Source of the DNA: a bacterium
Lineage (GTDB): Bacteria; Bacteroidota; Ignavibacteria; Kapaibacteriales; UBA2268
DNA length: 64,000 nt
Direction: 5' to 3'
Assembly: GCA_037127915.1 (NCBI GenBank)
Contig: JBAXXL010000020.1
Span: forward strand, 1,822-65,821
Under the pieces are notes generated by a model that was not told the origin of the DNA, made no database searches, and saw only the letters and a list, made by a program, of their open reading frames with translations. The first letter of the stretch is position 1. Each line of letters starts with the position of its first letter. The position numbers and the translations under genes are program-made. Below are positions 1-52,362 of this stretch, one piece after another.

Positions 1-1026
1 ACTTTTCTTAAGGCTTGACCATTCAAACTTTATTTGGCTGTAACTACGAGTTATTCCAAAACCTGTTCCGGTAATAGTAACTTCATCTTCAACAAAGCCC
101 GAATTCGGTGTTATACTTTTAATTACGGGAACAATTATTTCACCCTTAATGCAACGAACCGATTGTCCGGATTCCTTATCTGGGCCAATTGAGAATAATT
201 CGGCATTATCGTAGGTTGCGGAAAGTCCTAAAACATACTTGCTTGAGTTCAACCACGAACCAAAAATACCAAATCCCCAGAATTCTCCTTTTTCATTCCT
301 ATTCCCCGCAGGTAGCCCTGAAAATCCGCTTTCATTAGTAGCACCTTCATTGGGTGTTACCCATAAGCCGTCGCCGACTTGGTAAGTACCTATACTTTTA
401 AGTTTGCCCCCGCCTTCACTCATACCGCCAAGAAATTCTTCTAAAGCATTGCTTTCCTGTTCACTAGGGATATGCCAACCTACAGGAGCTAAACCACGCG
501 GGTCTGTAACTGCATACCAATTGTAAAGTTTCCCATAAATTCCATCCATAGCCGGATCGTTATTATAGTAGCACCAAGCCCCTGTGGTTAATTTGCTCCA
601 TTCAATTGAATCAGTAACCTGAGGGATTGGATCTCCATTTCGATAATGATCAACATCAAGATTTTTGCACGACCAGATTTGATTTCCGATTGTTGTTTCG
701 GAACAATCATTTGAAATGAAAATGATACTGTCAATCGCAGCGATATTAAAATACCTTAGTGTGACCGGTAGATTGATTTTAATTTTTTTTACGCCGGTGA
801 GTTCAATTGACGAAATATTTGTGTTTAAGTATGAATAACTTGTATCATGTAAAAATACCTTCATAGTATAAAGAATGTCTGATTTTATAAAACTCATTTC
901 AATTAAATCTTCTATTCTGTATTCTTTCGAATTTCCATCTTCAAGATAAAACTTTATAGTCGGCTCAACTGCCTTGAGAGTTAAACTAACCATAAGAAAC
1001 ATCATTATAAATATAACTTTTTTCAT
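1..1026 (-). CDS. Secreted FISUMP-family protein (N-terminal family-specific domain, FISUMP domain, IPT/TIG). Partial, with the 3' end beyond the window start.
   Basis: Reverse-complement ATG at 1024-1026. Translation begins MKKVIFIMMFLMVSLTLKAVEPTIKFYLEDG, nearly identical to the N-termini of the three downstream paralogues. It contains GKLYNWYAV...GWHIPS...GGKLK...SVRCIKG motifs typical of the Fibrobacter succinogenes major paralogous domain, then a TIG-like IVPVIKSITP...GTGFG segment. Confidence 0.75.
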   Translation of the reverse strand, partial: MKKVIFIMMFLMVSLTLKAVEPTIKFYLEDGNSKEYRIEDLIEMSFIKSDILYTMKVFLHDTSYSYLNTNISSIELTGVKKIKINLPVTLRYFNIAAIDSIIFISNDCSETTIGNQIWSCKNLDVDHYRNGDPIPQVTDSIEWSKLTTGAWCYYNNDPAMDGIYGKLYNWYAVTDPRGLAPVGWHIPSEQESNALEEFLGGMSEGGGKLKSIGTYQVGDGLWVTPNEGATNESGFSGLPAGNRNEKGEFWGFGIFGSWLNSSKYVLGLSATYDNAELFSIGPDKESGQSVRCIKGEIIVPVIKSITPNSGFVEDEVTITGTGFGITRSYSQIKFEWSSLKKS

Positions 1027-1062
1027 ATTTAAAAACCTTAATTAACTATATATTCTTTTATA

Positions 1063-1093
1063 GATGGGCTCCACCTCCAAGGTGGAGTCCATC
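1063..1093 (-). terminator. Hairpin gatgggctccacc-tccaa-ggtggagtccatc downstream of the 1128-5195 gene
   Basis: Near-perfect 13-bp inverted repeat located after the stop codon of a minus-strand gene. No strong U-tract follows. Confidence 0.35.
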
Positions 1094-1127
1094 TTATCTC
1101 ACTACTTCACAAACTTTAAGAACTGTT

Positions 1128-4100
1128 TTAATCTTTAATACAACGAACGGCAAAACCACTATTTGTTGTATTGCCATATATGAATAATTTAGTGTTGCTA
1201 TAGTCCAAACAATAAGATGATAAATTAACTTCATGGTCTTTCTTAGTTAATCCCCACCAATAACCAAAGTAACCCTTGTATTGGAATACGCCATAGTAAT
1301 CACGTGTTCCACCGGGTAGTGCCGAAAATCCGGTTTCGTTTGTAGCACCTTTATTTGGATATTGCCACAGACCATTTCCGTTTCTGGATGTACCTGTACT
1401 TTTTAGTTTTCCGCCCGCCAAGTTCTCACCGCCAAGATAATTGGTGAGTATTGTCCATTCCTCATCGTTTGGTATATGCCAACCGGCAGGAGCTAATCCG
1501 CGCGAATCACTAACGGCATACTTATTGTATAGTTTGCCAAATTTACCGCCTTCCGCAAGGTCGTTTTTGTAGTAGCACCAGGCACCGGTTTTTAAATTTG
1601 ACCAAGCTAGGGCATCAGTAACTTGAGGAATTGTGTCGCCATTACGATAAGTAGAAACATCGAGATTTTTGCATGACCATTTTTGAGTTCCGATTGTGAC
1701 GTATTCGCAGTCGTCCGGTTTCAGAGGTTTAACAGTGAATTCAACTTTATCGCTCTTTATATCATTTACCGTAATACTTATATACCCTGTTTCAGCACCT
1801 GCGGGAACCTTCACTTTTACTTGGATATTACTCCAGCTTATATAATCGCTTTGCTCTGGTTTTATTGAATTAAATGATATATAATTAGCTCCTTGAGAAG
1901 AACCGAAATTCGCTCCATTTATCGTAATTTCATCGCCTATATATCCGTTATTCGGAATTATGCTATTAATCATAGGTACAATTGCATTCGCTTTTATACA
2001 GCGTATAGCAAATCCATTTTCCTTCGTATTTGAGTTGCGAATGAGTAGTGAATCGTAGTAGTCCATTGTTCTGCTCCAAGCATTGTTAGTGCTACTATCA
2101 GTTGAACACCACCATTTACAGTGATATTCTAATTTAAGGAAATCACTAATGTTTCCACGGTAGCCGCTTGGCAAAGCTGAAAAGCCGTATTCGTCTGTTG
2201 CTCTTCTATTTGTATTAGGCCAATGTTTTGTTCCGGCTTCTTTTAGTTTATAAATTGCCGCGCTATCACCGCCTGCATAATCAATAAGTTGTGTCCATTC
2301 CGGATCGCTTGGTATTTTCCATCCAGCAGGAGCCAAACCGCGTGGGTCGTTCACGGCATACCAATTATAAAGTTTACCATAAACTTTTCCATAATATGGA
2401 TCATTATTGTAGTAGCACCATGCACCTGTTTTTAAATTTTTCCATTCTGTGCTGTCTTTTACCTGTGGTATAGGATCGCCATTTCTGTAACGGCATACTT
2501 CTAGATTTTCTCCCATCCACACTTGGGTTCCAATTGTAAGTGGAGTGTACGAACTTCTACCACCGCAAGGGATAGTGTCAGGATTGTAATCCTTAACACA
2601 GCGTACCGAAAAACCATCATTTTGATAATATTTAATTCTATCCAATGAAGGTGAATAATAGTAAATAAGGCTACCATAAGCATTATCTGAACTCCACCAA
2701 TGAGCATAAGTACCAATTTCAGAGAATCTTAAATTTCCACTATAGTGACCACGTCCAGCGGCAGGTAAAGCCTTAAATCCAAATTCGTCAGTAGCTCCCG
2801 CGTTAGGACTTAACCAATGAGTAGTTCCAACTTCCTTTAGTTTTCCGCCAACTACATCCGCAGGACCAAAATAGTCCGCAAAGTAGGTCCACTCAGCATT
2901 ACTTGGCACGTGCCAACCTTCAGGAGCCAATCCGCGCGGATCGTTTACCGCATACCAGTTGTAAAGTTTTCCGAATATTTTACCATTTTCAGGATCGTTA
3001 TGACTATAGCACCATGCGCCTGTTTTTAAATTTTTCCATTTGACGCTATCCTTAACTTCCGGTATTATGTCTCCATTTCTATATCTGCATACATCAAGGT
3101 TTTCTCCCATCCATACAAGAGGTCCTATTTTGACGGAAGTATAGTATGCTCTTTCAGTACAAGGTATTAAAACTTCAAAATCTACTTCATTGCTCTGTCT
3201 TTCGCTTACAGTAACAGATACTTTTGCATATCCGGTTTCAATTTTATTCGGAACTCTAACTTTTATTTTCGAATTGCTCCAGCTTAAATAATTATTTGGC
3301 GGTAGTGTTAAGGAACTGAACGTAACGACGCTAGTACCTTGAACATCTCCAAAACCGGTACCTTCGAGTATTACTTCATCACCAATATATCCGGTAGCCG
3401 GATTAATTTTGTTGATTTTAGGAAATACAAATTCACCTTTGACGCAACGAACTGAAAAACCATATTCTTTACTATTGCTGTATCTATATATGCCCGGGTA
3501 ATAATAGCTCAGTCCTCTGAACCAAACATCTGCCGTATCGGTAGCAGTAGAACTCCACCAATAACCTTCTTTACCCAAACTGTAAAACGCACCTTGATTA
3601 CCGCGGTAGCTCCCTGGGAGAGCGGTAAAACCCGTTGCATTTGTAGCACCGGTATTAGGTTTACGCCAATGGTCAAATCCAACTTCTTTCAATTTGCCGC
3701 CTTCATTCGTTCCGCGGTATCCTGTTGAATCAACTAATGTATTGGACATACCAAGATGCTTTTCTAATGTTTTCCAATCTTCATCTTCAGGCACATGCCA
3801 ACCAACCGGTGCTAAGCCGCGAGGGTCGTTCACCGCATACCAATTGTAAAGTTTGCCGTAAATGTTTCCATTATTAGTATCGTTATTATAGTAACACCAA
3901 GCACCTGTTTTTAAATTTTTCCATTCTGTGGAGTCAGTAATCTGTGGAATGAGATCGCCATTTCGATAATAACAAACATCGAGATTTTCTCCCATCCATT
4001 CTTGTGTACCTATATTTAAAGTCGTGTATGAGCTTTTTTCGGTGCATGGCAGTAGAACTGTAAAATCTACTTCATTGCTCTTATTTCCATTTACGGTTGC

Positions 4101-5195
4101 GAAAACTTTCCCTGTTCTCGCGCCCTTGGGCACTTTTACTTTTATTTCAGTGTCGTTCCAGCTTGTATAATCGGTTGATAGTGGTTTTGTTGAGTTAAAT
4201 AAAATGATATTAGAACTGCGTGTTTTTCCGAAGCCGCTTCCGCTTAATGTTACTTCATCTCCCAAATTACCATATTCTGGAATTATACTATTTATGACAG
4301 GTACTATTGCTTCACCTTTTACGCAACGTATAGATAACCCGGATTCCATAGCTTTACCGGCTCGGGTTAGACTGCCGGTACTATAATTTACAGCACTGAA
4401 CCAAGAATTAGTTTTACCGTTGTCATTAGAACTCCACCAATAACCGTCGGAACTCATAAATAAGAAAGAGCCATCTTTTAATCTTAAACCTCCGGGAAGA
4501 GCCAGAAAACCGCTTTCGTTAGTAGCTCCAAAGTTGGGGCTTTGCCAATGTGCAGTTCCGGATTCCTTCAATTTGCCGCCGGCTTGCGGTTCGCCGCCGA
4601 GATAAGCAGTTAGAGTCTTCCATTCTTCATCACTTGGAATATGCCAACCGACAGGTGCCAAGCCGCGCGGGTCGTTTACAGCGTACCAATTGTATAGTTT
4701 ACCATAGGTTTTACCATACTCTGTGTCATTATTGTAATAGCACCAAGCACCTGTGGTTAATGTACTCCATTCTGCAGGGTCAACAACTTGAGGTAATAAA
4801 TCGCCATTTCGATAGTGTTCAACATCAAGATTTTTGCACATCCATGTTTGGGTGCCTATTGTAATTTCAGTACATGAATATACTATAAAAATAATGGAAT
4901 CAATTCTGTTGATATTAATTAATTCGGTTCCATCTGAAAATTTGAGAACTAATGTTGTCGAATCAGAGAAATTCATTGATTCAATTGCACGAATGTCGTA
5001 AGTTGTTTTTAATCCTGAAGAATAAATATACATCAGAAATGGCAATTCCGGCTGTATGAACTTCATATCCGCAATTTCTTCAATTTTATACTGTTTTGAG
5101 GAACCATCTTCAAGATAAAACTTTATAGTCGGTTCAACTGCCTTAAGAGTTAAACTAACTATAAACAACGCGATAATCAATAAAACTTTTTTCAT
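1128..5195 (-). CDS. Giant secreted protein with 5 FISUMP domains interleaved with 3 IPT/TIG-like domains (1355 aa)
   Basis: Signal peptide MKKVLLIIALFIVSLTLKA. The motif GTQ.WM..NLDV..YRNGD.IPQV.D...W..L.TGAWCYYNND...G..YGKLYNWYAV.DPRGLAP.GWH.P...EW..L...LGG...AGGKLK...WSS....SVRC.K recurs five times. IPT/TIG-like stretches read IVPVINSIIP..G..GDEVT..G.GFG. Confidence 0.85.
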   Translation of the reverse strand: MKKVLLIIALFIVSLTLKAVEPTIKFYLEDGSSKQYKIEEIADMKFIQPELPFLMYIYSSGLKTTYDIRAIESMNFSDSTTLVLKFSDGTELININRIDSIIFIVYSCTEITIGTQTWMCKNLDVEHYRNGDLLPQVVDPAEWSTLTTGAWCYYNNDTEYGKTYGKLYNWYAVNDPRGLAPVGWHIPSDEEWKTLTAYLGGEPQAGGKLKESGTAHWQSPNFGATNESGFLALPGGLRLKDGSFLFMSSDGYWWSSNDNGKTNSWFSAVNYSTGSLTRAGKAMESGLSIRCVKGEAIVPVINSIIPEYGNLGDEVTLSGSGFGKTRSSNIILFNSTKPLSTDYTSWNDTEIKVKVPKGARTGKVFATVNGNKSNEVDFTVLLPCTEKSSYTTLNIGTQEWMGENLDVCYYRNGDLIPQITDSTEWKNLKTGAWCYYNNDTNNGNIYGKLYNWYAVNDPRGLAPVGWHVPEDEDWKTLEKHLGMSNTLVDSTGYRGTNEGGKLKEVGFDHWRKPNTGATNATGFTALPGSYRGNQGAFYSLGKEGYWWSSTATDTADVWFRGLSYYYPGIYRYSNSKEYGFSVRCVKGEFVFPKINKINPATGYIGDEVILEGTGFGDVQGTSVVTFSSLTLPPNNYLSWSNSKIKVRVPNKIETGYAKVSVTVSERQSNEVDFEVLIPCTERAYYTSVKIGPLVWMGENLDVCRYRNGDIIPEVKDSVKWKNLKTGAWCYSHNDPENGKIFGKLYNWYAVNDPRGLAPEGWHVPSNAEWTYFADYFGPADVVGGKLKEVGTTHWLSPNAGATDEFGFKALPAAGRGHYSGNLRFSEIGTYAHWWSSDNAYGSLIYYYSPSLDRIKYYQNDGFSVRCVKDYNPDTIPCGGRSSYTPLTIGTQVWMGENLEVCRYRNGDPIPQVKDSTEWKNLKTGAWCYYNNDPYYGKVYGKLYNWYAVNDPRGLAPAGWKIPSDPEWTQLIDYAGGDSAAIYKLKEAGTKHWPNTNRRATDEYGFSALPSGYRGNISDFLKLEYHCKWWCSTDSSTNNAWSRTMDYYDSLLIRNSNTKENGFAIRCIKANAIVPMINSIIPNNGYIGDEITINGANFGSSQGANYISFNSIKPEQSDYISWSNIQVKVKVPAGAETGYISITVNDIKSDKVEFTVKPLKPDDCEYVTIGTQKWSCKNLDVSTYRNGDTIPQVTDALAWSNLKTGAWCYYKNDLAEGGKFGKLYNKYAVSDSRGLAPAGWHIPNDEEWTILTNYLGGENLAGGKLKSTGTSRNGNGLWQYPNKGATNETGFSALPGGTRDYYGVFQYKGYFGYWWGLTKKDHEVNLSSYCLDYSNTKLFIYGNTTNSGFAVRCIKD

Positions 5196-5237
5196 AAACT
5201 TAATTCCATATTTAATTAATAATCTTTATTCTTTTTA

Positions 5238-5270
5238 ACTCATCCGATAATTGGCAGTCATCGGATGAGT
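5238..5270. repeat. Palindromic intergenic repeat family C (actcatccgat..ggcagtcatcggatgagt), copy 1
   Basis: 15-bp stem inverted repeat preceded by the conserved leader ttaattaataatctttattctt. Further copies lie at 8091-8128 and 9249-9287, with a degenerate copy at 29481-29515. All copies are 3' of genes. Confidence 0.7.
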
Positions 5271-5279
5271 AGAACTTTT

Positions 5280-6158
5280 TTATTCTTCTACACATCGTAC
5301 CGATAAGCCGCTACACATTGCACTACACCCCCAAGGTTGATTAGCTTTGTCATAGCTCAAAGTCCAAGAGTAAACAAGTGAAACATTAGCCTTGTCCTGA
5401 GTCCACATAAAATTAGAAAATCCGAGTTCCGAAAATTTTGGATAACGAGCACCACCCGGAAGTGCAGTAAAACCGGATTCATTGGTTGCACCGGTATTCG
5501 GATATTGCCAATGGTTGGTACCGGCTTCTTTCAACTTGCCTCCGGCAACGGCTTCACCACCCAGTGAATTTAAAAGAATCGTCAGATCACTATTATGCGG
5601 CACACGCCAACCTGCGGGTGCTAAACCGCGCGGATCATTTACAGCATACCAATTATAGAGTTTTCCGTATATAGCACCCATCACGGGATCGTTGTTGTAA
5701 TAGCACCAGGCTCCGGTTTTAAGGTTTTGCCATTCCGCGGAATCGGTAACTTGCGGAATAATTTCGCCATTGCGGTAGTACTCAACATCAAGATTTTTTT
5801 TCATCCAAGTTTGCGGTCCAATTGTAATTTGATTATATGGATTACGAATAAAGGTTATACTGTCTATATCGCCGATATTGATATTTTCTACCGAAGATGA
5901 AAGATTTATTTTCAATGTGTTTAAATCGCTAAATTCCAATGTGCTTATGTTTTTTACATTATAGGAATTTTTTGCACCGTCTATAAAGACTTCCATCAGA
6001 TATGGTAAATTTGATTTAACAAAACTCATTTCAATAAAATCTTCCAGTCTATATTCTTTTGAATTTCCATCTTCAAGATAAAACTTAACAACCGGTTCAA
6101 CTCCTTTGAGAGTTAAACTAAGCATAAACAACGCGATAATCAATAACACTTTTTTCAT
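5280..6158 (-). CDS. Secreted single-domain FISUMP-family protein (292 aa)
   Basis: Signal peptide plus the shared N-terminal domain (VEPVVKFYLEDGNSKEYRLEDFIEMSF) and one FISUMP domain (IGPQTWMKKNLDV...YGKLYNWYAV...SVRCVEE). Confidence 0.85.
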   Translation of the reverse strand: MKKVLLIIALFMLSLTLKGVEPVVKFYLEDGNSKEYRLEDFIEMSFVKSNLPYLMEVFIDGAKNSYNVKNISTLEFSDLNTLKINLSSSVENINIGDIDSITFIRNPYNQITIGPQTWMKKNLDVEYYRNGEIIPQVTDSAEWQNLKTGAWCYYNNDPVMGAIYGKLYNWYAVNDPRGLAPAGWRVPHNSDLTILLNSLGGEAVAGGKLKEAGTNHWQYPNTGATNESGFTALPGGARYPKFSELGFSNFMWTQDKANVSLVYSWTLSYDKANQPWGCSAMCSGLSVRCVEE

Positions 6159-6199
6159 AACCTTAATTCCCTATTTAATTAATAATCTTTTTTTCTACT

Positions 6200-6245
6200 A
6201 ACCTTCCGAAGGTTCGAAACCTTCGGAAGGTTTCGAGACGTCTCT
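6200..6245. repeat. Palindromic repeat family B (aaccttccgaaggttcgaaaccttcggaaggtttcgagacgtctc), intergenic copy
   Basis: Tandem palindromes ccttccgaagg / ccttcggaagg plus gagacgtctc. A nearly identical 44-bp copy at 9443-9486 lies inside the CDS 9291-11114. Confidence 0.7.
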
Positions 6246-6305
6246 TCAACTTTATAACTTTAAGAACATTATGAACTTTAAAAACTTTAAACTTTACAAA
6301 CTCAT

Positions 6306-8057
6306 TTAATCCTTAATACAACGCACCGACAAGCAGGAACCTTTATTTTCACTCGATCGAGAGCAATTCGTTGACATGTTGTAAATATTTCTATTCCAAG
6401 CGACGTTTTCATCCAATTCAGTAGAAGTCCACCAATATCCATAAAAGTTTATCATTTGAAACGACATTTCAGAAAGTTTGCCACCCGGGAGTGCTAAAAA
6501 TCCACTTTCGTTAGTAGCACCGAAGTTTGGTGCTTTCCAAAGTCCGGTATTATCTTTCAAATTTCCTGTGCTTTTCAATTTACCGCCAGCTACAGTAGTA
6601 TCGCCAAGATAATCCGTTAGCTTAGTCCATTCTGCGTCGCTTGCCACATGCCAACCTTCGGGAGCTAATCCGCGAGGATCATTAACGGCGTACCAATTAT
6701 AGAGTTTGCCATAAAGTTCTTCATTTTCAACTTTAAAAGAATAATAGCACCAAGCACCGGTTGTTAAATTATTCAAGTCAGTCCATTTTTTTACCTGTTG
6801 TATTGTATCACCGTTGCGGTAGCAGTCCACATTAAGGTTGCGTGACATCCAAACTTGTGTTCCAATAATTATTGCTTCAAAATAATCGGGATCGGTTTGG
6901 GTGATAACGAAATTTACTAAATTGCTTAAAATACCCTCGACGCATACAGATACATACCCTGTTTTTGCATCTTGCGGAATAACTAATTTTATTTCAGTAT
7001 CGCTCCAAGATATATAATCGCTCTTATCAGCAGTTAAAGTTCCAAATGAAACATAACTGAATTTGCGTTCCGCTCCAAAACCGGTACCGGAAACTGTGAG
7101 TACCTTACCTACTTGAGATGAATTGGGGGATATAGATTTGATAGCGGGAATATTATAATCTTTTATACAACGCACCGAAAAACCACAAGTTTTTTTACCC
7201 ATACTTGTACCAAGCGCAGATTTATCGTAGGATAACACACGGATCCATATACTTTTAATTGTTTCTTGTTCGGAAGAAGACCAATAATTAGCGGTTAAAC
7301 CTATATTAGTGAATGAATCATACCTATAACCGCTAGGTACGCCGGAAAAATTAGTTTCATTTGTGGCACCAACGTTTGGGCTTTGCCATAAACCATCGCC
7401 TGTTTCAATGGTGCCGGTACTTTTTAGCATACCACCGGCTAAGGAATCGCCGCCCAGATTGTCAGGGATTGTTTTCCATTCTTCAATAATTGGAATGTGC
7501 CAGCCTTCGGGAGCTAAACCACGAGGATCGCTAACAGCATACCAGTTGTAAAGTTTTCCATAGATTGCTCCCATAGCGGGGTCGTTGTTATAATAGCACC
7601 ATGCACCCGTTTGCAGGTTAACCCATTCAGCGGAGTCAGTAACTTGCGGGATTGGGTCGCCGTTGCGGTAGGATTCGACATCAAGATTTTGTCCCATCCA
7701 AGTGAAGTTTCCTATGGGAATCTCATTAGCGGTTTTCGGAACAAAATTTATACTATCAATTTCGGAAATTAAAAAAAGAGAAGCATCATCTGTTTTCTGG
7801 ACTACTAATGTGTTGGAATTAAGGAACGTCAGAGAAGTGATATCCTTTGTATCTAAAGTATATTTAGTATTATAAGCATATACTTCCATCATATAAGGCA
7901 AATCGGACTCAATAAAATTCATTTCCTCTATGTCGTCAATTCTATATTGACTAAAATTTCCATCTTCAAGATAAAATTTAATTCCCAAATCTTCTGATTT
8001 GAGCGTAAAACTAATCACACACAACAAAATAATAAATAAAACATTTTTCATATTCAA
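6306..8057 (-). CDS. Secreted protein with two FISUMP domains and an IPT/TIG-like domain (583 aa)
   Basis: Signal peptide plus the shared N-terminal domain (LGIKFYLEDGNFSQYRIDDIEEMNF) and two FISUMP motif sets (YGKLYNWYAV.DPRGLAPEGWH) separated by IPAIKSISP..GTGFG. Confidence 0.85.
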   Translation of the reverse strand: MNMKNVLFIILLCVISFTLKSEDLGIKFYLEDGNFSQYRIDDIEEMNFIESDLPYMMEVYAYNTKYTLDTKDITSLTFLNSNTLVVQKTDDASLFLISEIDSINFVPKTANEIPIGNFTWMGQNLDVESYRNGDPIPQVTDSAEWVNLQTGAWCYYNNDPAMGAIYGKLYNWYAVSDPRGLAPEGWHIPIIEEWKTIPDNLGGDSLAGGMLKSTGTIETGDGLWQSPNVGATNETNFSGVPSGYRYDSFTNIGLTANYWSSSEQETIKSIWIRVLSYDKSALGTSMGKKTCGFSVRCIKDYNIPAIKSISPNSSQVGKVLTVSGTGFGAERKFSYVSFGTLTADKSDYISWSDTEIKLVIPQDAKTGYVSVCVEGILSNLVNFVITQTDPDYFEAIIIGTQVWMSRNLNVDCYRNGDTIQQVKKWTDLNNLTTGAWCYYSFKVENEELYGKLYNWYAVNDPRGLAPEGWHVASDAEWTKLTDYLGDTTVAGGKLKSTGNLKDNTGLWKAPNFGATNESGFLALPGGKLSEMSFQMINFYGYWWTSTELDENVAWNRNIYNMSTNCSRSSENKGSCLSVRCIKD

Positions 8058-8090: not shown

Positions 8091-8128
8091 AACTCATCCG
8101 ATGACTGGCAGTCATCGGATGAGTAAAC
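8091..8128. repeat. Palindromic repeat family C, copy 2
   Basis: aactcatccgatgactggcagtcatcggatgagtaaac, with the same ttaattaataatctttattctt leader as the copy at 5211-5237. Confidence 0.7.
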
Positions 8129-8248: not shown

Positions 8249-8707
8249 TTACTTAACCAATATCATTTTTTTGGTTAAAACTTCGCTATTAAACCTTACT
8301 TCGTAGTAATATGTTCCGCTTTCGACTCTGTTGTTGTTTTTGTCTATGCAGTTCCATGGCAAAGAATTTTTCCCGATTTGACAATTGGTACATTCCAACT
8401 TTTGGATTTGATTGCCGCGATTATCGTAAATTATAACCTCTACATTGCCGATGGAAGAAATTTCAAACTCGATATTAGTTTGTTCCTGAAACGGATTAGG
8501 ATAATTACCCGTAACTGCTAAGCCGCTTAAAGATTGGTTTGGCTCGTTTACAGATGTAACATTCTCGAATTTAATCGTTTTGATTTTTGAAACCGCGATT
8601 TTTTCGATTTGATTATTTTTCAATTTAATAACCAATGTATCAGTTTGCGCATATACACTAACACTATAAGCAATTAGTATAACTAAAGCCGTTAATAATG
8701 ATTTCAT
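8249..8707 (-). CDS. Small secreted protein with a T9SS (Por) C-terminal sorting domain
   Basis: The likely start is the internal Met at 8705-8707 (MKSLLTALVILIAYSVSVYA signal peptide). The ORF track extends the ORF to 8758. The C-terminus reads NYPNPFQEQTNIEFEISS.GNVEVIIYDNRGNQI...GTYYYEVRF, a typical T9SS CTD. Confidence 0.6.
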   Translation of the reverse strand: MKSLLTALVILIAYSVSVYAQTDTLVIKLKNNQIEKIAVSKIKTIKFENVTSVNEPNQSLSGLAVTGNYPNPFQEQTNIEFEISSIGNVEVIIYDNRGNQIQKLECTNCQIGKNSLPWNCIDKNNNRVESGTYYYEVRFNSEVLTKKMILVK

Positions 8708-8750
8708 ACAATACTCCAAATAAAAATTAAATAAAACACTTTTTTCAAAT

Positions 8751-9206
8751 TTGTACACTTTACTTATGTATAGACAACTGAGAAGTCCATTTCTTTCTCA
8801 TTCATTAAATTAATTTTTTGTCATAATTGGGGGAAACGGCGAAAATGATTGATATTAATGGTTATAGGTGTTTTAAGAAAAGTGAAAATAATTTTGTCGA
8901 AAAGCATTACATCCCTAGCGGGATGAGAAAAAAGGAAAAAAGTGCCGTAGGCATGCAATATCGGTAGAAAAGGTGAAATATTGTTTTGGGAAGTCCCATC
9001 GGGACGAAATAGAATATTCTGAATTAGGATTCAAGGATTAAAAGATTGTAGGATGTATTATTCGAAGCGTTGTATAAAAAACGCATCGCGCTTTTGGCTA
9101 TTAACCACATTTTGTTTAATTTAAGATTATATGCCGTACCTTAAGGCACTTCTCGGTTACCTCTAATCCTATTTTCTACCAATATTGCATCCCTAGCGGG
9201 ATGAAA
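8751..9206. other. Conserved noncoding block set X, homologous to 13681-14215
   Basis: An approximately 120-bp near-identical block (ttgtacactttacttatgtatagacaactgagaagtccatttctttctcattcattaaattaattttttgtcataattggg...), the motif aaaagtgaaaataatttt, the hairpins catccctagcgggatg and gtcccatcgggac, and a block reading ttttctaccaatattgcatccctagcgggatga are all shared with the region upstream of 11116-13677. Confidence 0.6.
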
Positions 9207-9248
9207 TAAAAATTCCAACACATCCTAAGTTGCAGAACTGCATGTTAT

Positions 9249-9287
9249 TACTCATCCGATGACTGCCAGTCATCGGATGAGTTTAAG
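9249..9287. repeat. Palindromic repeat family C, copy 3
   Basis: tactcatccgatgactgccagtcatcggatgagtttaag, immediately 3' of the CDS 9291-11114. Confidence 0.7.
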
Positions 9288-22970: not shown

Positions 22971-23509
22971 TTTAAATATATCCTATTTATTTTAACAATT
23001 ATAATTTACACATTTATATATAAAACATTATAAACAAATTTCCAAAGAAATAACTTCTATAATATTCAAAAATAATCAATTAATACCTAATAAAAAACTG
23101 CCTTCGGCAGATTATTATTTTATTAATATCCATTACAGCGTAGAGGCGTTGCATGCAACGTCTTCTTTTTAGTGAAAAAAGAGGGAAAAACCGATTATAA
23201 GATTGAATGTATTCTTAAATATAAACGAGAATACTGCTAAATCAACGAATATTTTATTTTATCAATCCCATTATATAAACCAAATTCAAAAAAGTGTACA
23301 TAAATTTGTACACTAGGTATACTTTTTCAATAAATATTCCAATTGTTTTCAAAAAAAGTGAAAATAATTTCAAAAAAGCGTTGTTTTTGTCGAATATTCA
23401 TATCGTGAATTCAAATTATATTTGTATTTTTGTCCTGTTGAATTAACAATTATTAACAAATAATGTCAGAATAAGTAAAATTATTTTTAGTTTATAATAA
23501 GAAGTAACA

Positions 23510-29475: not shown

Positions 29476-29717
29476 TTTTTTATCATCCGATGCCTGCAAG
29501 TCATCGAATGAATCAGTAAATTTTGCAAATAAATGGGTTATTTCGAGCCATAAAGTGTGAAATGAAATTCACAAAATGGATTATTTTCGCAAAAAAGCAC
29601 TTTAATTTAATAATATATAAAAAAAAAAGAAATATAATTTGGTAGTTGTGGAAAAAAAGTTTATTTTTGAATTCTCTATTTATGAGATTATAAGAAAAAT
29701 ATATTTGAGGATTAGAC

Positions 29718-51722: not shown

Positions 51723-51811
51723 TCTTTATCTCACAAATTTGAGAAACTCAACAGAATTCTTATTCTAAATTAGGTAAAACATTTTTATTATCCAAATAAC
51801 CATGTTTATTT

Positions 51812-52040
51812 CACCCTTTCAGGGTTTGTTAGTCGTAAAACAATTTCCTTGCTACAAAAATTGCACCCGTTCCGGGTTGAAGAGCCGATTTCAGCATCTC
51901 AGGGTTTGTTAGTCGTAAAACAATTTCCTTGCTACAAAAATACCACCCGTTCCGGGTTAAAGAGCAGATTTAACCCTTTCAGGGTTTATTTGCCGCATAA
52001 AACAATCTCATTTTTCTATTCACGTTCAATCCTTTCAGGA
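51812..52040. repeat. Tandem direct repeat of about 75 bp x2, plus two degenerate units
   Basis: The unit c(c/t)ttcagggtttgttagtcgtaaaacaatttccttgctacaaaaat.ccacccgttccgggtt.aagagc.gatt occurs at 51813-51895 and 51896-51973. cctttcagg seeds recur at 51975 and 52031. Confidence 0.7.
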
Positions 52041-52287
52041 TTGGCGAAATCAATTACGAATTTCAAATTACGAATTACGAATGCGGACAGGTAACGAGGG
52101 TCCATACAAAAGAAGACACACGCAGTGCGTCTCCGCGTCTTTGCGGTGAATTCTTCTTTCTTTTTGCATCTCGACTTCGCTCGATGACCTACCTGTTCTT
52201 CCTATACCCTATACCCAAAACCCTATACCCATTTTGGAGGATGGATTACCGATTCGCGGAAAAGAAGACGTAGTATAAATGTATCAA

Positions 52288-52362
52288 GGAGATTCCGGCT
52301 CGGAGGCCGGAATGACGGATTTTTTTTGGGAGATTTCGGCTCGGAGGCTGGAATGACGAAAG
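52288..52362. repeat. Duplicated hairpin motif gagatt(c/t)cggctcggaggc(c/t)ggaatgacg, 2 copies, the first followed by T8
   Basis: attccggc-tcggag-gccggaat has an 8-bp stem. It lies 3' of the minus-strand gene 52365-54044 and reads as a plus-strand terminator. Confidence 0.5.

What the first reader, a model, noticed from the sequence alone, without database searches (positions are those of the whole stretch)
8751..9206. Large conserved noncoding block set shared upstream of two unrelated gene neighbourhoods, containing small hairpins
About 450 bp at 8751-9206 and 13681-14215 share several blocks. One is a block of about 120 bp at over 90% identity. Others are the motif aaaagtgaaaataatttt, the hairpins catccctagcgggatg and gtcccatcgggac, and cgcgcttttggctat…cattttgtttaattta. 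The block order differs between the two copies. A third partial copy (ttgtacact … aagtgaaaataattt) lies at 23305-23370 upstream of the S8 protease gene pair. The conservation far exceeds what a simple promoter needs. These blocks could be long structured 5' leaders, small RNAs, or relics of a mobile element associated with secreted and toxin cargo genes.
Basis: seen in the sequence. Interest (0 to 1): 0.55.

Follow-up and report, generated by a model that had tools for sequence, protein, structure and literature searches.

The report
ECF-type promoter plus duplicated intergenic filler
The best-conserved shared block is most likely the promoter of an alternative (ECF) sigma factor that switches on a set of secreted-protein genes in an uncultivated Kapaibacterium, and the other blocks look like locally duplicated, hairpin-rich intergenic DNA, so the finding is real but mostly ordinary.

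Summary
The shared blocks exist as described: A 8726-8901 ~ 13655-13830, B, C and D, with C and D swapped.

Block A is not a leader RNA or a transposon relic. Its centre is a 32-bp element, GAGAAAGAAATGGACTTCTCAGTTGTCTATAC, on the minus strand at 8768-8799 and 13697-13728. I found 27 such sites in the 0.25 Mb of Kapaibacterium-like DNA held. Every site lies upstream of, and co-oriented with, a gene. Most of those genes encode signal-peptide or T9SS-cargo proteins.

The element also sits directly upstream of one ECF sigma/anti-sigma operon in every orthologue examined, including the one in the window's own genome. In the two most distant sigma orthologues, only GAGAAAGAAA and TTGTCTAT survive, 12 nt apart, with a different spacer. 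That is a bipartite, probably autoregulated, sigma-factor promoter that marks a regulon.

Tests for RNA structure, covariation, Rfam matches and a uORF were negative.

Blocks B-D occur only in this genome. They comprise a 28-nt inverted-repeat pair, small palindromes, and a fragment of the 5' flank of an orphan Rhs toxin cassette. They are best read as a co-duplicated, rearranged intergenic segment, possibly REPIN-like.

One oddity remains. The 12-nt spacer is invariant across about 22 sites from several sources whose orthologous proteins are only 58-76% identical.

The parts
8768..8799 (-). 32-bp promoter core, copy 1. Read on the minus strand: GAGAAAGAAA (8799-8790, -35-like), spacer TGGACTTCTCAG (8789-8778), TTGTCTAT (8777-8770, -10-like), then AC.
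   Evidence: Exact repeat found at 27 sites. The two outer blocks are invariant and the spacer is variable in distant orthologues.
13697..13728 (-). 32-bp promoter core, copy 2: -35-like 13728-13719, -10-like 13706-13699.
   Evidence: The same core lies upstream of the orthologous genes in L001, L023 and L021, and of the paralog in L019.
8805..8826 (-). AT-rich upstream block TTATGACAAAAAATTAATTTAA, just upstream of the -35-like block (copy 1). Copy 2 is at 13734-13755.
   Evidence: Conserved in orthologues and the paralog of the 846-aa gene across species (alignment A2; coordinates).
8878..8895 (.). Motif AAAAGTGAAAATAATTTT. Read towards the gene it is AAAATTATTTTCACTTTT, about 80-95 nt upstream of the core. 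Copy 2 is at 13807-13824.
   Evidence: Exact in both copies. The AAAATTATTT part is conserved upstream of the orthologues. AATTATTTT(T)CA also lies next to the -35-like block in the sigma-gene promoters and in most MAG copies.
8708..8767 (-). Sequence between the core and the start codon of the 152-aa gene: the inferred 5' UTR, containing the conserved GTACAA. Copy 2 is at 13657-13696.
   Evidence: The transcription start is inferred, not measured.
8249..8707 (-). Downstream gene of copy 1: a 152-aa secreted protein with a T9SS C-terminal sorting domain.
   Evidence: Pfam Por_Secre_tail and FlgD_ig; NCBIfam TIGR04183.
9291..13656 (-). Downstream genes of copy 2: an 846-aa Ig-like (choice-of-anchor D) protein (11116-13656) and a 607-aa T9SS-tail protein (9291-11114).
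   Evidence: The same gene pair occurs in L019 and L023.
8923..9016 (.). Block B (copy 2: 13979-14073). It contains the left inverted-repeat arm 8945-8973 (copy 2: 14002-14030) and the hairpin GTCCCATCGGGAC at 8993-9005 (copy 2: 14050-14062).
9076..9123 (.). Block C (copy 2: 14155-14200). It is a fragment of the 5' flank of orphan Rhs C-terminal toxin cassettes. In copy 2 it directly precedes the Rhs-CT gene 14243-15367(+).
   Evidence: A C-like block lies upstream of a second Rhs-CT gene, L019 14963-16021(-).
9126..9212 (.). Block D (copy 2: 14071-14156). It contains the right inverted-repeat arm 9169-9199 (copy 2: 14115-14145) and the hairpin CATCCCTAGCGGGATG at 9188-9203.
8910..8925 (.). 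Hairpin CATCCCTAGCGGGATG between blocks A and B. It looks like a terminator on the minus strand. Copy 2 has a different palindrome at the same place, GGACAGGTCGTGACCTGTCC at 13844-13863.
17735..17780 (.). Solo copy of the right arm plus hairpin (TTTTTAACCAATATTGCATCCCTAACGGGATG), lying after the Rhs toxin/immunity array.
23355..23368 (+). Isolated third occurrence of AAAGTGAAAATAAT. There is no promoter core here, so it is not a copy of block A.

Best explanation
Block A is the regulatory region of a sigma-factor regulon.

Its 32-bp centre reads GAGAAAGAAA-N12-TTGTCTAT(AC) on the minus strand. I read it as the -35 and -10 recognition elements of one ECF-type sigma factor. That factor is encoded elsewhere in the same genome (protein MEI6090705) next to a membrane anti-sigma factor.

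Proposed mechanism:
- When the anti-sigma factor releases the sigma factor, RNA polymerase carrying it starts transcription a few bases downstream of TCTATAC.
- It transcribes leftward into the 152-aa T9SS-cargo gene (copy 1) and into the 846-aa/607-aa secreted-protein operon (copy 2).
- The same happens at the sigma operon itself (autoregulation) and at a dozen or more other secreted-protein genes.
- The AT-rich blocks upstream (TTATGACAAAAAATTAATTTAA and AAAATTATTTTCA) probably act as UP-like or activator sites.

What is shown: the element's sequence, position, orientation, copy number, cross-species conservation and link to the sigma gene.

What is inferred: that this sigma factor recognises the element, and where transcription starts.

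The rest of the block set is distal A, B, C, D and the small hairpins. It is non-coding DNA that was duplicated together with the promoter within this genome and then rearranged. It consists of a 28-nt inverted-repeat (foldback, REPIN-like) pair, small palindromes of the kind that litter this genome, and a stub of the 5' flank of an Rhs toxin cassette. I see no evidence that it has a function of its own.
For: Copy number and position
- A 21-mer from block A hits 13 sites on 10 contigs of one related MAG, Ca. Kapaibacterium JBBRAO01.
- nhmmer adds 2 more sites, and a metagenome scan adds 3.
- A spacer-blind bipartite scan finds 27 sites in the DNA held. Only 2 of them are in the window, and 0.17 would be expected by chance.
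- Every site is upstream of and co-oriented with a gene. Most products have signal peptides and several have T9SS tails.

Link to the sigma gene
- The element lies about 20 nt upstream of the ATG of an ECF sigma gene (Sigma70_r2 + r4_2; TIGR02937 above its cut-off). An anti-sigma-like gene follows.
- Sigma orthologues were fetched through the protein alone, not the DNA motif. All of them carry the element: L007, L015/16, L017, L018, and L024-26, which come from the window's own genome.

Bipartite nature
- In L017, L018 and L021 the spacer differs at most positions. GAGAAAGAAA and TTGTCTAT, and their 12-nt distance, are kept.

Selection
- The element is kept upstream of orthologous genes whose coding DNA is only 73-78% identical.

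Principle
- ECF sigma factors usually autoregulate. This is how their target promoters are normally predicted (PMC7826278).

Blocks B-D
- They are absent from 85 kb of the related MAG and from 37 kb more of the same genome, except for one arm-like 16-mer and one C-like block next to another Rhs-CT gene.
- All six reading frames are equally conserved, so they are not coding.
- The inverted arms fold, with z = -4.5 to -6.4 on the minus strand.
Against: - The -35-like and -10-like blocks lack the AAC and CGT signatures typical of many ECF promoters. That consensus comes from my own knowledge of the ECF literature.
- In the main clade the 12-nt spacer is also invariant, which a sigma factor alone does not require.
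- No transcription data exist.
- Most MAG sites were found by exact-match scans. These could only return copies that match the searched part of the core, which includes the spacer (the metagenome pattern allowed three variable positions). The count of identical spacers is therefore biased upward.
- For B-D only two full copies could be examined, and I could not scan the rest of the genome.
Confidence: 0.72

Rival explanations
1. The core is an operator for a dedicated DNA-binding regulator. It overlaps a housekeeping promoter of the Bacteroidota type (-33 TTG inside GTTGTC, -7 cAAATTTG), and the ECF sigma gene is merely one of the regulator's targets.
For: Many copies have ATGTACAAATTTG 8-9 nt after the core, resembling TAnnTTTG. 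The invariant spacer and the GAGAA...TTCTC dyad would suit a protein operator (one search lists the 5 pairs).
Against: The TTTG part is not conserved in L001, L012, L013, L021 or L023; only GTACAA is. In all the sigma genes the box abuts the start codon, so a start site about 7 nt downstream would fall inside the ORF. The dyad is lost in L017 and L018, where the spacer differs.
Confidence: 0.13
2. Block A is a mobile or actively copied promoter cassette, comparable to promoter-bearing MITEs such as Correia elements. It has spread in front of secreted-protein genes, and blocks B-D are part of the same element.
For: Within the MAG, about 115-200 nt of promoter plus leader is nearly identical in front of unrelated genes, for example L004 versus L011. 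In the window, about 0.5 kb was duplicated without the genes. B and D form 28-nt inverted arms. RAYT-like Y1 transposase genes occur in related genomes.
Against: The core sits at orthologous positions in several species. No terminal repeats or target duplications bound block A. Between species only the promoter blocks are conserved. B-D do not accompany the other copies in this genome (L019, L024) or any MAG copy.
Confidence: 0.1
3. The blocks are transcribed as structured RNA. This could be a cis-regulatory 5' leader or a uORF (MDFSVVY) in block A, and/or a small RNA spanning B-D.
For: The core contains an ATG that opens a short ORF in most copies. The B-D region folds better than shuffled sequence, especially on the minus strand.
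Against: No Rfam match. No consensus structure or covariation in 19 copies. The ATG is lost in L017, L018, L021 and L023, and the peptide tail varies from 8 to 50 aa. In copy 2 the outer part of the B/D stem is broken without compensating changes. B-D are not conserved in relatives.
Confidence: 0.05

Closest known systems
Autoregulated ECF sigma-factor promoters and their regulons (e.g. RpoE, SigW; ECF classification of Casas-Pastor et al. 2021, PMC7826278)
   Same: A bipartite element with fixed spacing lies directly upstream of an ECF sigma/anti-sigma operon. It is repeated upstream of a set of co-oriented envelope or secreted-protein genes. Its geometry is about 16 nt between AGAAAG and TGTCTA.
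   Different: The block sequences (GAGAAAGAAA / TTGTCTAT) lack the common AAC and CGT signatures. The spacer is invariant in one clade. Dependence on the sigma factor is untested.
PorXY-SigP control of type IX secretion genes in Porphyromonas gingivalis (PMC4800418)
   Same: An ECF sigma factor in the Bacteroidota governs genes of the T9SS world.
   Different: SigP controls T9SS machinery genes and its proposed motif is unrelated. Here the targets are cargo-like proteins, and no PorX/PorY link was examined.
REP/REPIN elements mobilised by RAYT (Y1) transposases (own knowledge: Nunvar 2010; Bertels & Rainey 2011)
   Same: Blocks B and D form an inverted pair of about 28-nt arms, each next to a short palindrome. 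Solo arms exist. Other palindromes here are flanked by GTAG/CTAC. RAYT-like genes occur in related genomes.
   Different: Only 2 pairs and 2 solo arms were seen in 102 kb. The pair is 143-257 bp, longer than typical REPINs. No RAYT was located in this genome, and no link between a RAYT and these arms was shown.
Bacteroidota housekeeping promoters (-33 TTTG / -7 TAnnTTTG; own knowledge: Bayley et al. 2000)
   Same: A cAAATTTG box follows the core in many copies.
   Different: The box is not conserved in orthologues and abuts the sigma gene's ATG.

Membership tests
ECF sigma-dependent, autoregulated promoter | The same element lies directly upstream of the ECF sigma (and anti-sigma) operon. | tested here: met
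   Sigma70_r2 + r4_2 and TIGR02937. The element precedes the sigma gene in all 5 distinct orthologous contexts, including the window's genome.
ECF sigma-dependent, autoregulated promoter | Two short conserved blocks at a fixed distance, with a spacer free to vary. | tested here: met
   Among the 11 sites not found by exact-match scans, positions 1-10 and 23-30 are invariant apart from one change at position 2. Ten of the 12 spacer positions vary. In the main clade, however, the spacer is also fixed.
ECF sigma-dependent, autoregulated promoter | Canonical ECF signatures (-35 with AAC, -10 with CGT). | tested here: not met
   The blocks are GAGAAAGAAA and TTGTCTAT. Only the spacing resembles the consensus, which I recall from memory.
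ECF sigma-dependent, autoregulated promoter | Element repeated upstream of several co-oriented genes (a regulon). | tested here: met
   27 sites, all co-oriented with a downstream gene.
ECF sigma-dependent, autoregulated promoter | Transcription starts just downstream and requires that sigma factor. | not testable with these tools
   No transcript data or biochemistry available.
Structured cis-regulatory RNA / small RNA | Conserved secondary structure supported by covariation, or a match to a known family. | tested here: not met
   RNAalifold gave -2.7 kcal/mol with 0 compensatory pairs. Rfam found nothing at the gathering threshold or at E<=5.
Upstream ORF / leader peptide | Start codon and peptide conserved among copies. 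| tested here: not met
   The ATG is absent in L017, L018, L021 and L023. The tail varies from 8 to 50 aa.
MITE / REPIN (blocks B-D) | Terminal inverted repeats. | tested here: met
   Arms 8945-8973/9169-9199 and 14002-14030/14115-14145.
MITE / REPIN (blocks B-D) | Many dispersed copies in the genome. | tested here: inconclusive
   2 pairs plus 2 solo arms in 102 kb of this genome and none in 85 kb of the related MAG. The whole genome could not be scanned.
MITE / REPIN (blocks B-D) | Cognate transposase (RAYT), typically flanked by the same repeats. | tested here: inconclusive
   Y1_Tnp genes occur in L015 and L001, in related genomes. The flanks I inspected do not carry these arms. None could be assigned to this genome.
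Bacteroidota housekeeping promoter | -7 box TAnnTTTG at a conserved position, with the start site about 7 nt downstream and upstream of the ORF. | tested here: not met
   TTTG is not conserved in orthologues. The box abuts the ATG of the sigma genes.

The most novel reading that the evidence does not exclude
The 32-bp element is more than a sigma-factor site. In one Kapaibacterium clade the whole unit, spacer included, is frozen across about 22 promoters from several sources. Promoter-plus-leader modules of 115-200 nt appear in front of unrelated secreted-protein genes. This could mean that a second factor reads the spacer, and that the cassette is actively copied ('promoter capture') to recruit new cargo genes into the regulon. 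The foldback B-D element would then be a hitch-hiking REPIN-like repeat.
Probability: 0.15. Interest if true: 0.55.

Novelty: new member of a known kind. Interest (0 to 1): 0.3.

Why it matters
It gives a testable regulon for an uncultivated lineage (Kapaibacteria, Bacteroidota). One ECF sigma/anti-sigma pair is linked by a very sharp promoter signature to a set of secreted proteins, many of them T9SS-dependent. That helps annotate these MAGs and offers a clean promoter/sigma pair for synthetic use. The frozen spacer is a small puzzle about how promoters evolve within a regulon. It does not open a new category of element.

Tried and rejected
- Rfam at the gathering threshold and at E<=5 found nothing in the region.
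- RNAalifold on 19 copies showed no structure.
- The uORF MDFSVVY was rejected. Its ATG is lost in four orthologous sites and its tail is variable.
- Coding relics in B-D were rejected. tblastx showed no frame preference and no hit outside the two copies. Small ORFs are not conserved.
- A sigma-54 reading (TGGCAC-N5-TTGC) was rejected by eye. The spacing is off by one and the GC dinucleotide is absent. The 'TGGAC' is also part of the spacer that varies in L017 and L018.
- Exact look-ups of the 152-aa and 607-aa window proteins returned nothing.
- The look-up of P0009 returned only Logan contigs that break inside the repeated core. This shows incidentally that the core is a multi-copy exact repeat of assembler k-mer length.
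- A RAYT homologue search returned 1578 hits. None could be assigned to this genome.
- Viral-contig scans were uninformative. The arm gave 0 hits. The spacer-blind bipartite pattern gave 14 hits, about what I estimate chance would give for 17 AT-rich specified bases. I did not follow these up.
- The metagenome scan yielded only 3 further sites.

Full report
**Observation**

The two regions share four blocks:
- A: 8726-8901 ~ 13655-13830, 85% ungapped. The central 154 nt are 89% identical (E=1e-50). The best 120 nt are 90% and the best 100 nt are 94%.
- B: 8923-9016 ~ 13979-14073, 87.5%.
- C: 9076-9123 ~ 14155-14200, 87.5%.
- D: 9126-9212 ~ 14071-14156, 81%.

The order is A-B-C-D in copy 1 and A-B-D-C in copy 2.

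The claimed third copy at 23305-23370 shares only two short strings and lacks the core of block A. The gene downstream of it is an S8 peptidase with a T9SS tail.

**Setting**

Block A abuts the start codons of minus-strand genes. These are a 152-aa T9SS-tail protein (8249-8707) and an 846-aa Ig-like protein (11116-13656). The latter is followed by a 607-aa T9SS-tail protein.

On its other side, copy 2 faces an orphan Rhs C-terminal toxin gene (14243-15367). I identified that gene by reading its sequence, which ends in the typical Rhs core motif. Pfam gave no significant family for it.

The window belongs to a MAG labelled only 'bacterium' (locus tags WCR42_; protein MEI6090478 is 100% identical to the 846-aa product). 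Its nearest relative in the genome collection is Candidatus Kapaibacterium sp. JBBRAO01.

**What block A is**

A 21-mer from its most conserved part hit 13 sites on 10 contigs of that one related MAG. Aligning them showed a common module. On the strand that points towards the gene, it reads:
- an AT-rich stretch,
- then GAGAAAGAAATGGACTTCTCAGTTGTCTATAC,
- then 8-9 variable bases,
- then (A)TGTACAA.

A profile search added two slightly diverged copies, and a metagenome scan added three more. In every case the element lies upstream of a gene and points towards it. The products mostly have signal peptides, and several have T9SS tails.

One target (L007) is an ECF sigma factor followed by an anti-sigma-like membrane protein.

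**The decisive test**

I fetched orthologues of that sigma factor through the protein alone and read their upstream DNA. All of them carry the element about 20 nt before the ATG. This includes the orthologue from the window's own genome (L024-26; accession series MEI609...).

In two more distant orthologues (68-70% protein identity) the sequence is:
- GAGAAAGAAA ATTCAATCTCAC TTGTCTATAC (L017)
- GAGAAAGAAA ATCACATTTGAG TTGTCTATAC (L018)

The two outer blocks and their 12-nt distance are kept, and the middle is different.

The same holds for orthologues of the 846-aa gene:
- L021 has GGGAAAGAAA AAGCCTTTTCAT TTGTCTATGT.
- L023 has one spacer change.
- L019 extends the window 17 kb to the left and carries a third identical copy upstream of a paralog.

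Among the 11 sites not found by exact-match scanning, positions 1-10 and 23-30 are invariant, apart from one change at position 2. Ten of the 12 spacer positions vary.

A spacer-blind scan finds 27 sites in the DNA held. Only the two known ones are in the window, against 0.17 expected by chance.

This is the anatomy of a bipartite sigma-factor promoter. Its presence in front of the sigma gene itself is the classical sign of an autoregulated ECF factor, and this is how ECF target promoters are usually predicted (PMC7826278). The assignment of the element to this sigma factor, and the start site a few bases after TCTATAC, are inferences.

**Rivals for block A**

- Structured leader or small RNA: not supported. 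There is no Rfam match. RNAalifold on 19 copies gives -2.7 kcal/mol with no compensatory pair.
- uORF (MDFSVVY): rejected. The ATG lies in the spacer and is lost in four orthologous sites, and the peptide tail varies from 8 to 50 residues.
- Housekeeping Bacteroidota-type promoter (cAAATTTG after the core): unlikely. TTTG is not conserved in orthologues, and the box abuts the sigma gene's start codon.
- Mobile element: unlikely for the core. It sits at orthologous positions in species whose coding DNA is only 73-78% identical, and it has no terminal repeats.
- Modular copying: not excluded. Promoter-plus-leader modules do appear in front of unrelated genes in the MAG.

**More than a minimal promoter**

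Upstream of the 846-aa gene family, further blocks are conserved across species. They are TTATGAcAAAAAATTAATTTAA next to the -35-like block, ATTTAC, and AAAATTATTT(T)CA further upstream.

Copy 1 carries this whole family-specific upstream region in front of an unrelated gene. So copy 1 arose by duplication of the regulatory region within this lineage.

**An unexplained feature**

In the window's genome, JBBRAO01 and contigs from three other metagenome samples, the 12-nt spacer is identical or differs by 1-2 bases at about 22 sites. The orthologous proteins are only 58-76% identical and the flanks are saturated. The next-closest genomes have unrelated spacers, and these also differ between two promoters from one sample.

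Part of this count is biased, because the exact-match scans could only return copies matching the searched part of the core, which includes the spacer. The unbiased sites (L015, L019, L023, L024 and two in L008) show the same pattern. A second factor, or concerted evolution, could explain it. I could not test either.

**Blocks B-D**

- They are absent from 85 kb of the related MAG and from 37 kb more of the same genome. The exceptions are one 16-nt arm-like match (L019 14455) and a C-like block.
- The C-like block sits directly upstream of a second orphan Rhs-CT gene (L019 14963-16021). Block C is therefore the 5' flank of Rhs toxin cassettes. In copy 1 it is a stub with no cassette behind it.
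- B and D contain arms of about 28 nt (CCGnTAGGnATGCAATATyGGTAGAAAA) in inverted orientation, 257 bp apart in copy 1 and 143 bp in copy 2. A solo arm lies at 17735-17780.
- The region folds into a long hairpin, best on the minus strand (z = -6.4 and -4.5). In copy 2, however, the outer stem is degraded without compensation.
- No reading frame is favoured.

I read B-D as intergenic DNA duplicated together with the promoter and then rearranged. It contains a foldback repeat that may be REPIN-like. RAYT-type Y1 transposase genes occur in related genomes, but I could not link one to these arms.

**Verdict**

The main conserved block is explained as a new example of a known kind of thing: an ECF-type regulon promoter for secreted proteins in an uncultivated lineage. 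The remaining blocks are low-copy duplicated filler with small palindromes. Interest is modest. The frozen spacer and the palindromes noted in passing are the only unusual aspects.

Noticed in passing
window 9375-9394 and 9443-9475 (inside gene 9291-11114, minus strand); also L019 14176-14276 and L008 about 386: GC-rich palindromes lie in frame inside the coding sequence of T9SS C-terminal sorting domains, where they encode 'GTGRDLSA' and 'KPSEGFEPSEGS'. The same palindromes also occur between genes (6200-6232, 13844-13863, 17704-17723), some flanked by GTAG/CTAC like REP elements. Orthologues in L021 and L023 have loops of similar length (within 1-2 residues) without these palindromes. This recalls the Rickettsia palindromic elements found within genes.
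   Followed up: partly
window 5238-5270, 8092-8124, 9250-9282, about 29484-29510; L009 1809, L010 7181: One 33-nt hairpin (ACTCATCCGATGACTGGCAGTCATCGGATGAGT) recurs downstream of genes, several of which encode T9SS cargo, in two species. Most copies lie 9-40 nt after the stop codon; the one at 8092 is about 125 nt after it. It looks like a shared terminator-like element without a U tract.
   Followed up: partly
window 14243-17513: An orphan Rhs C-terminal toxin gene is followed by three repeats of about 758 bp, each with a 208-217-aa gene (15367-15993, 16125-16751, 16860-17513). This is probably an immunity-gene array. A second orphan Rhs-CT gene with the same 5' flank lies 10 kb left of the window (L019 14963-16021).
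   Followed up: partly
window 51808-52360: An 80-nt tandem duplicate (91% identical) lies in an intergenic stretch packed with further short hairpin repeats, for example GATTCCGGCTCGGAGGCCGGAATGACG twice.
   Followed up: no
L004, L006, L008, L009, L010 (related MAG JBBRAO01): At these sites the promoter is followed by a conserved 250-500-nt leader before genes for Cys-rich secreted proteins of about 250 aa. In some copies the leader contains a 21-nt tandem repeat that reads 'QLTAHSS'. The leader may hide a small gene or a regulatory RNA.
   Followed up: no
L024 12247-16841 (the window's own genome, another contig): A type II CRISPR-Cas locus (Cas9, Cas1, Cas2) lies immediately downstream of the ECF sigma/anti-sigma operon.
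   Followed up: no
window 1-8057 and L019 1-9754: There is a run of paralogous genes built from repeated Fib_succ_major plus TIG modules (up to 1355 aa). This accounts for the 850-1000-bp periodic repeats at the left end of the window.
   Followed up: partly
L020, L026, L027, L028 (Logan assemblies of the same species): These contigs start at or just inside the 32-bp core (GAAATGGACTTCTC...; sequence seen for L020 and L026). L027 also ends inside the 607-aa gene, near the region of the CTD palindromes. The exact repeats are long enough to fragment short-read assemblies of these genomes.
   Followed up: partly
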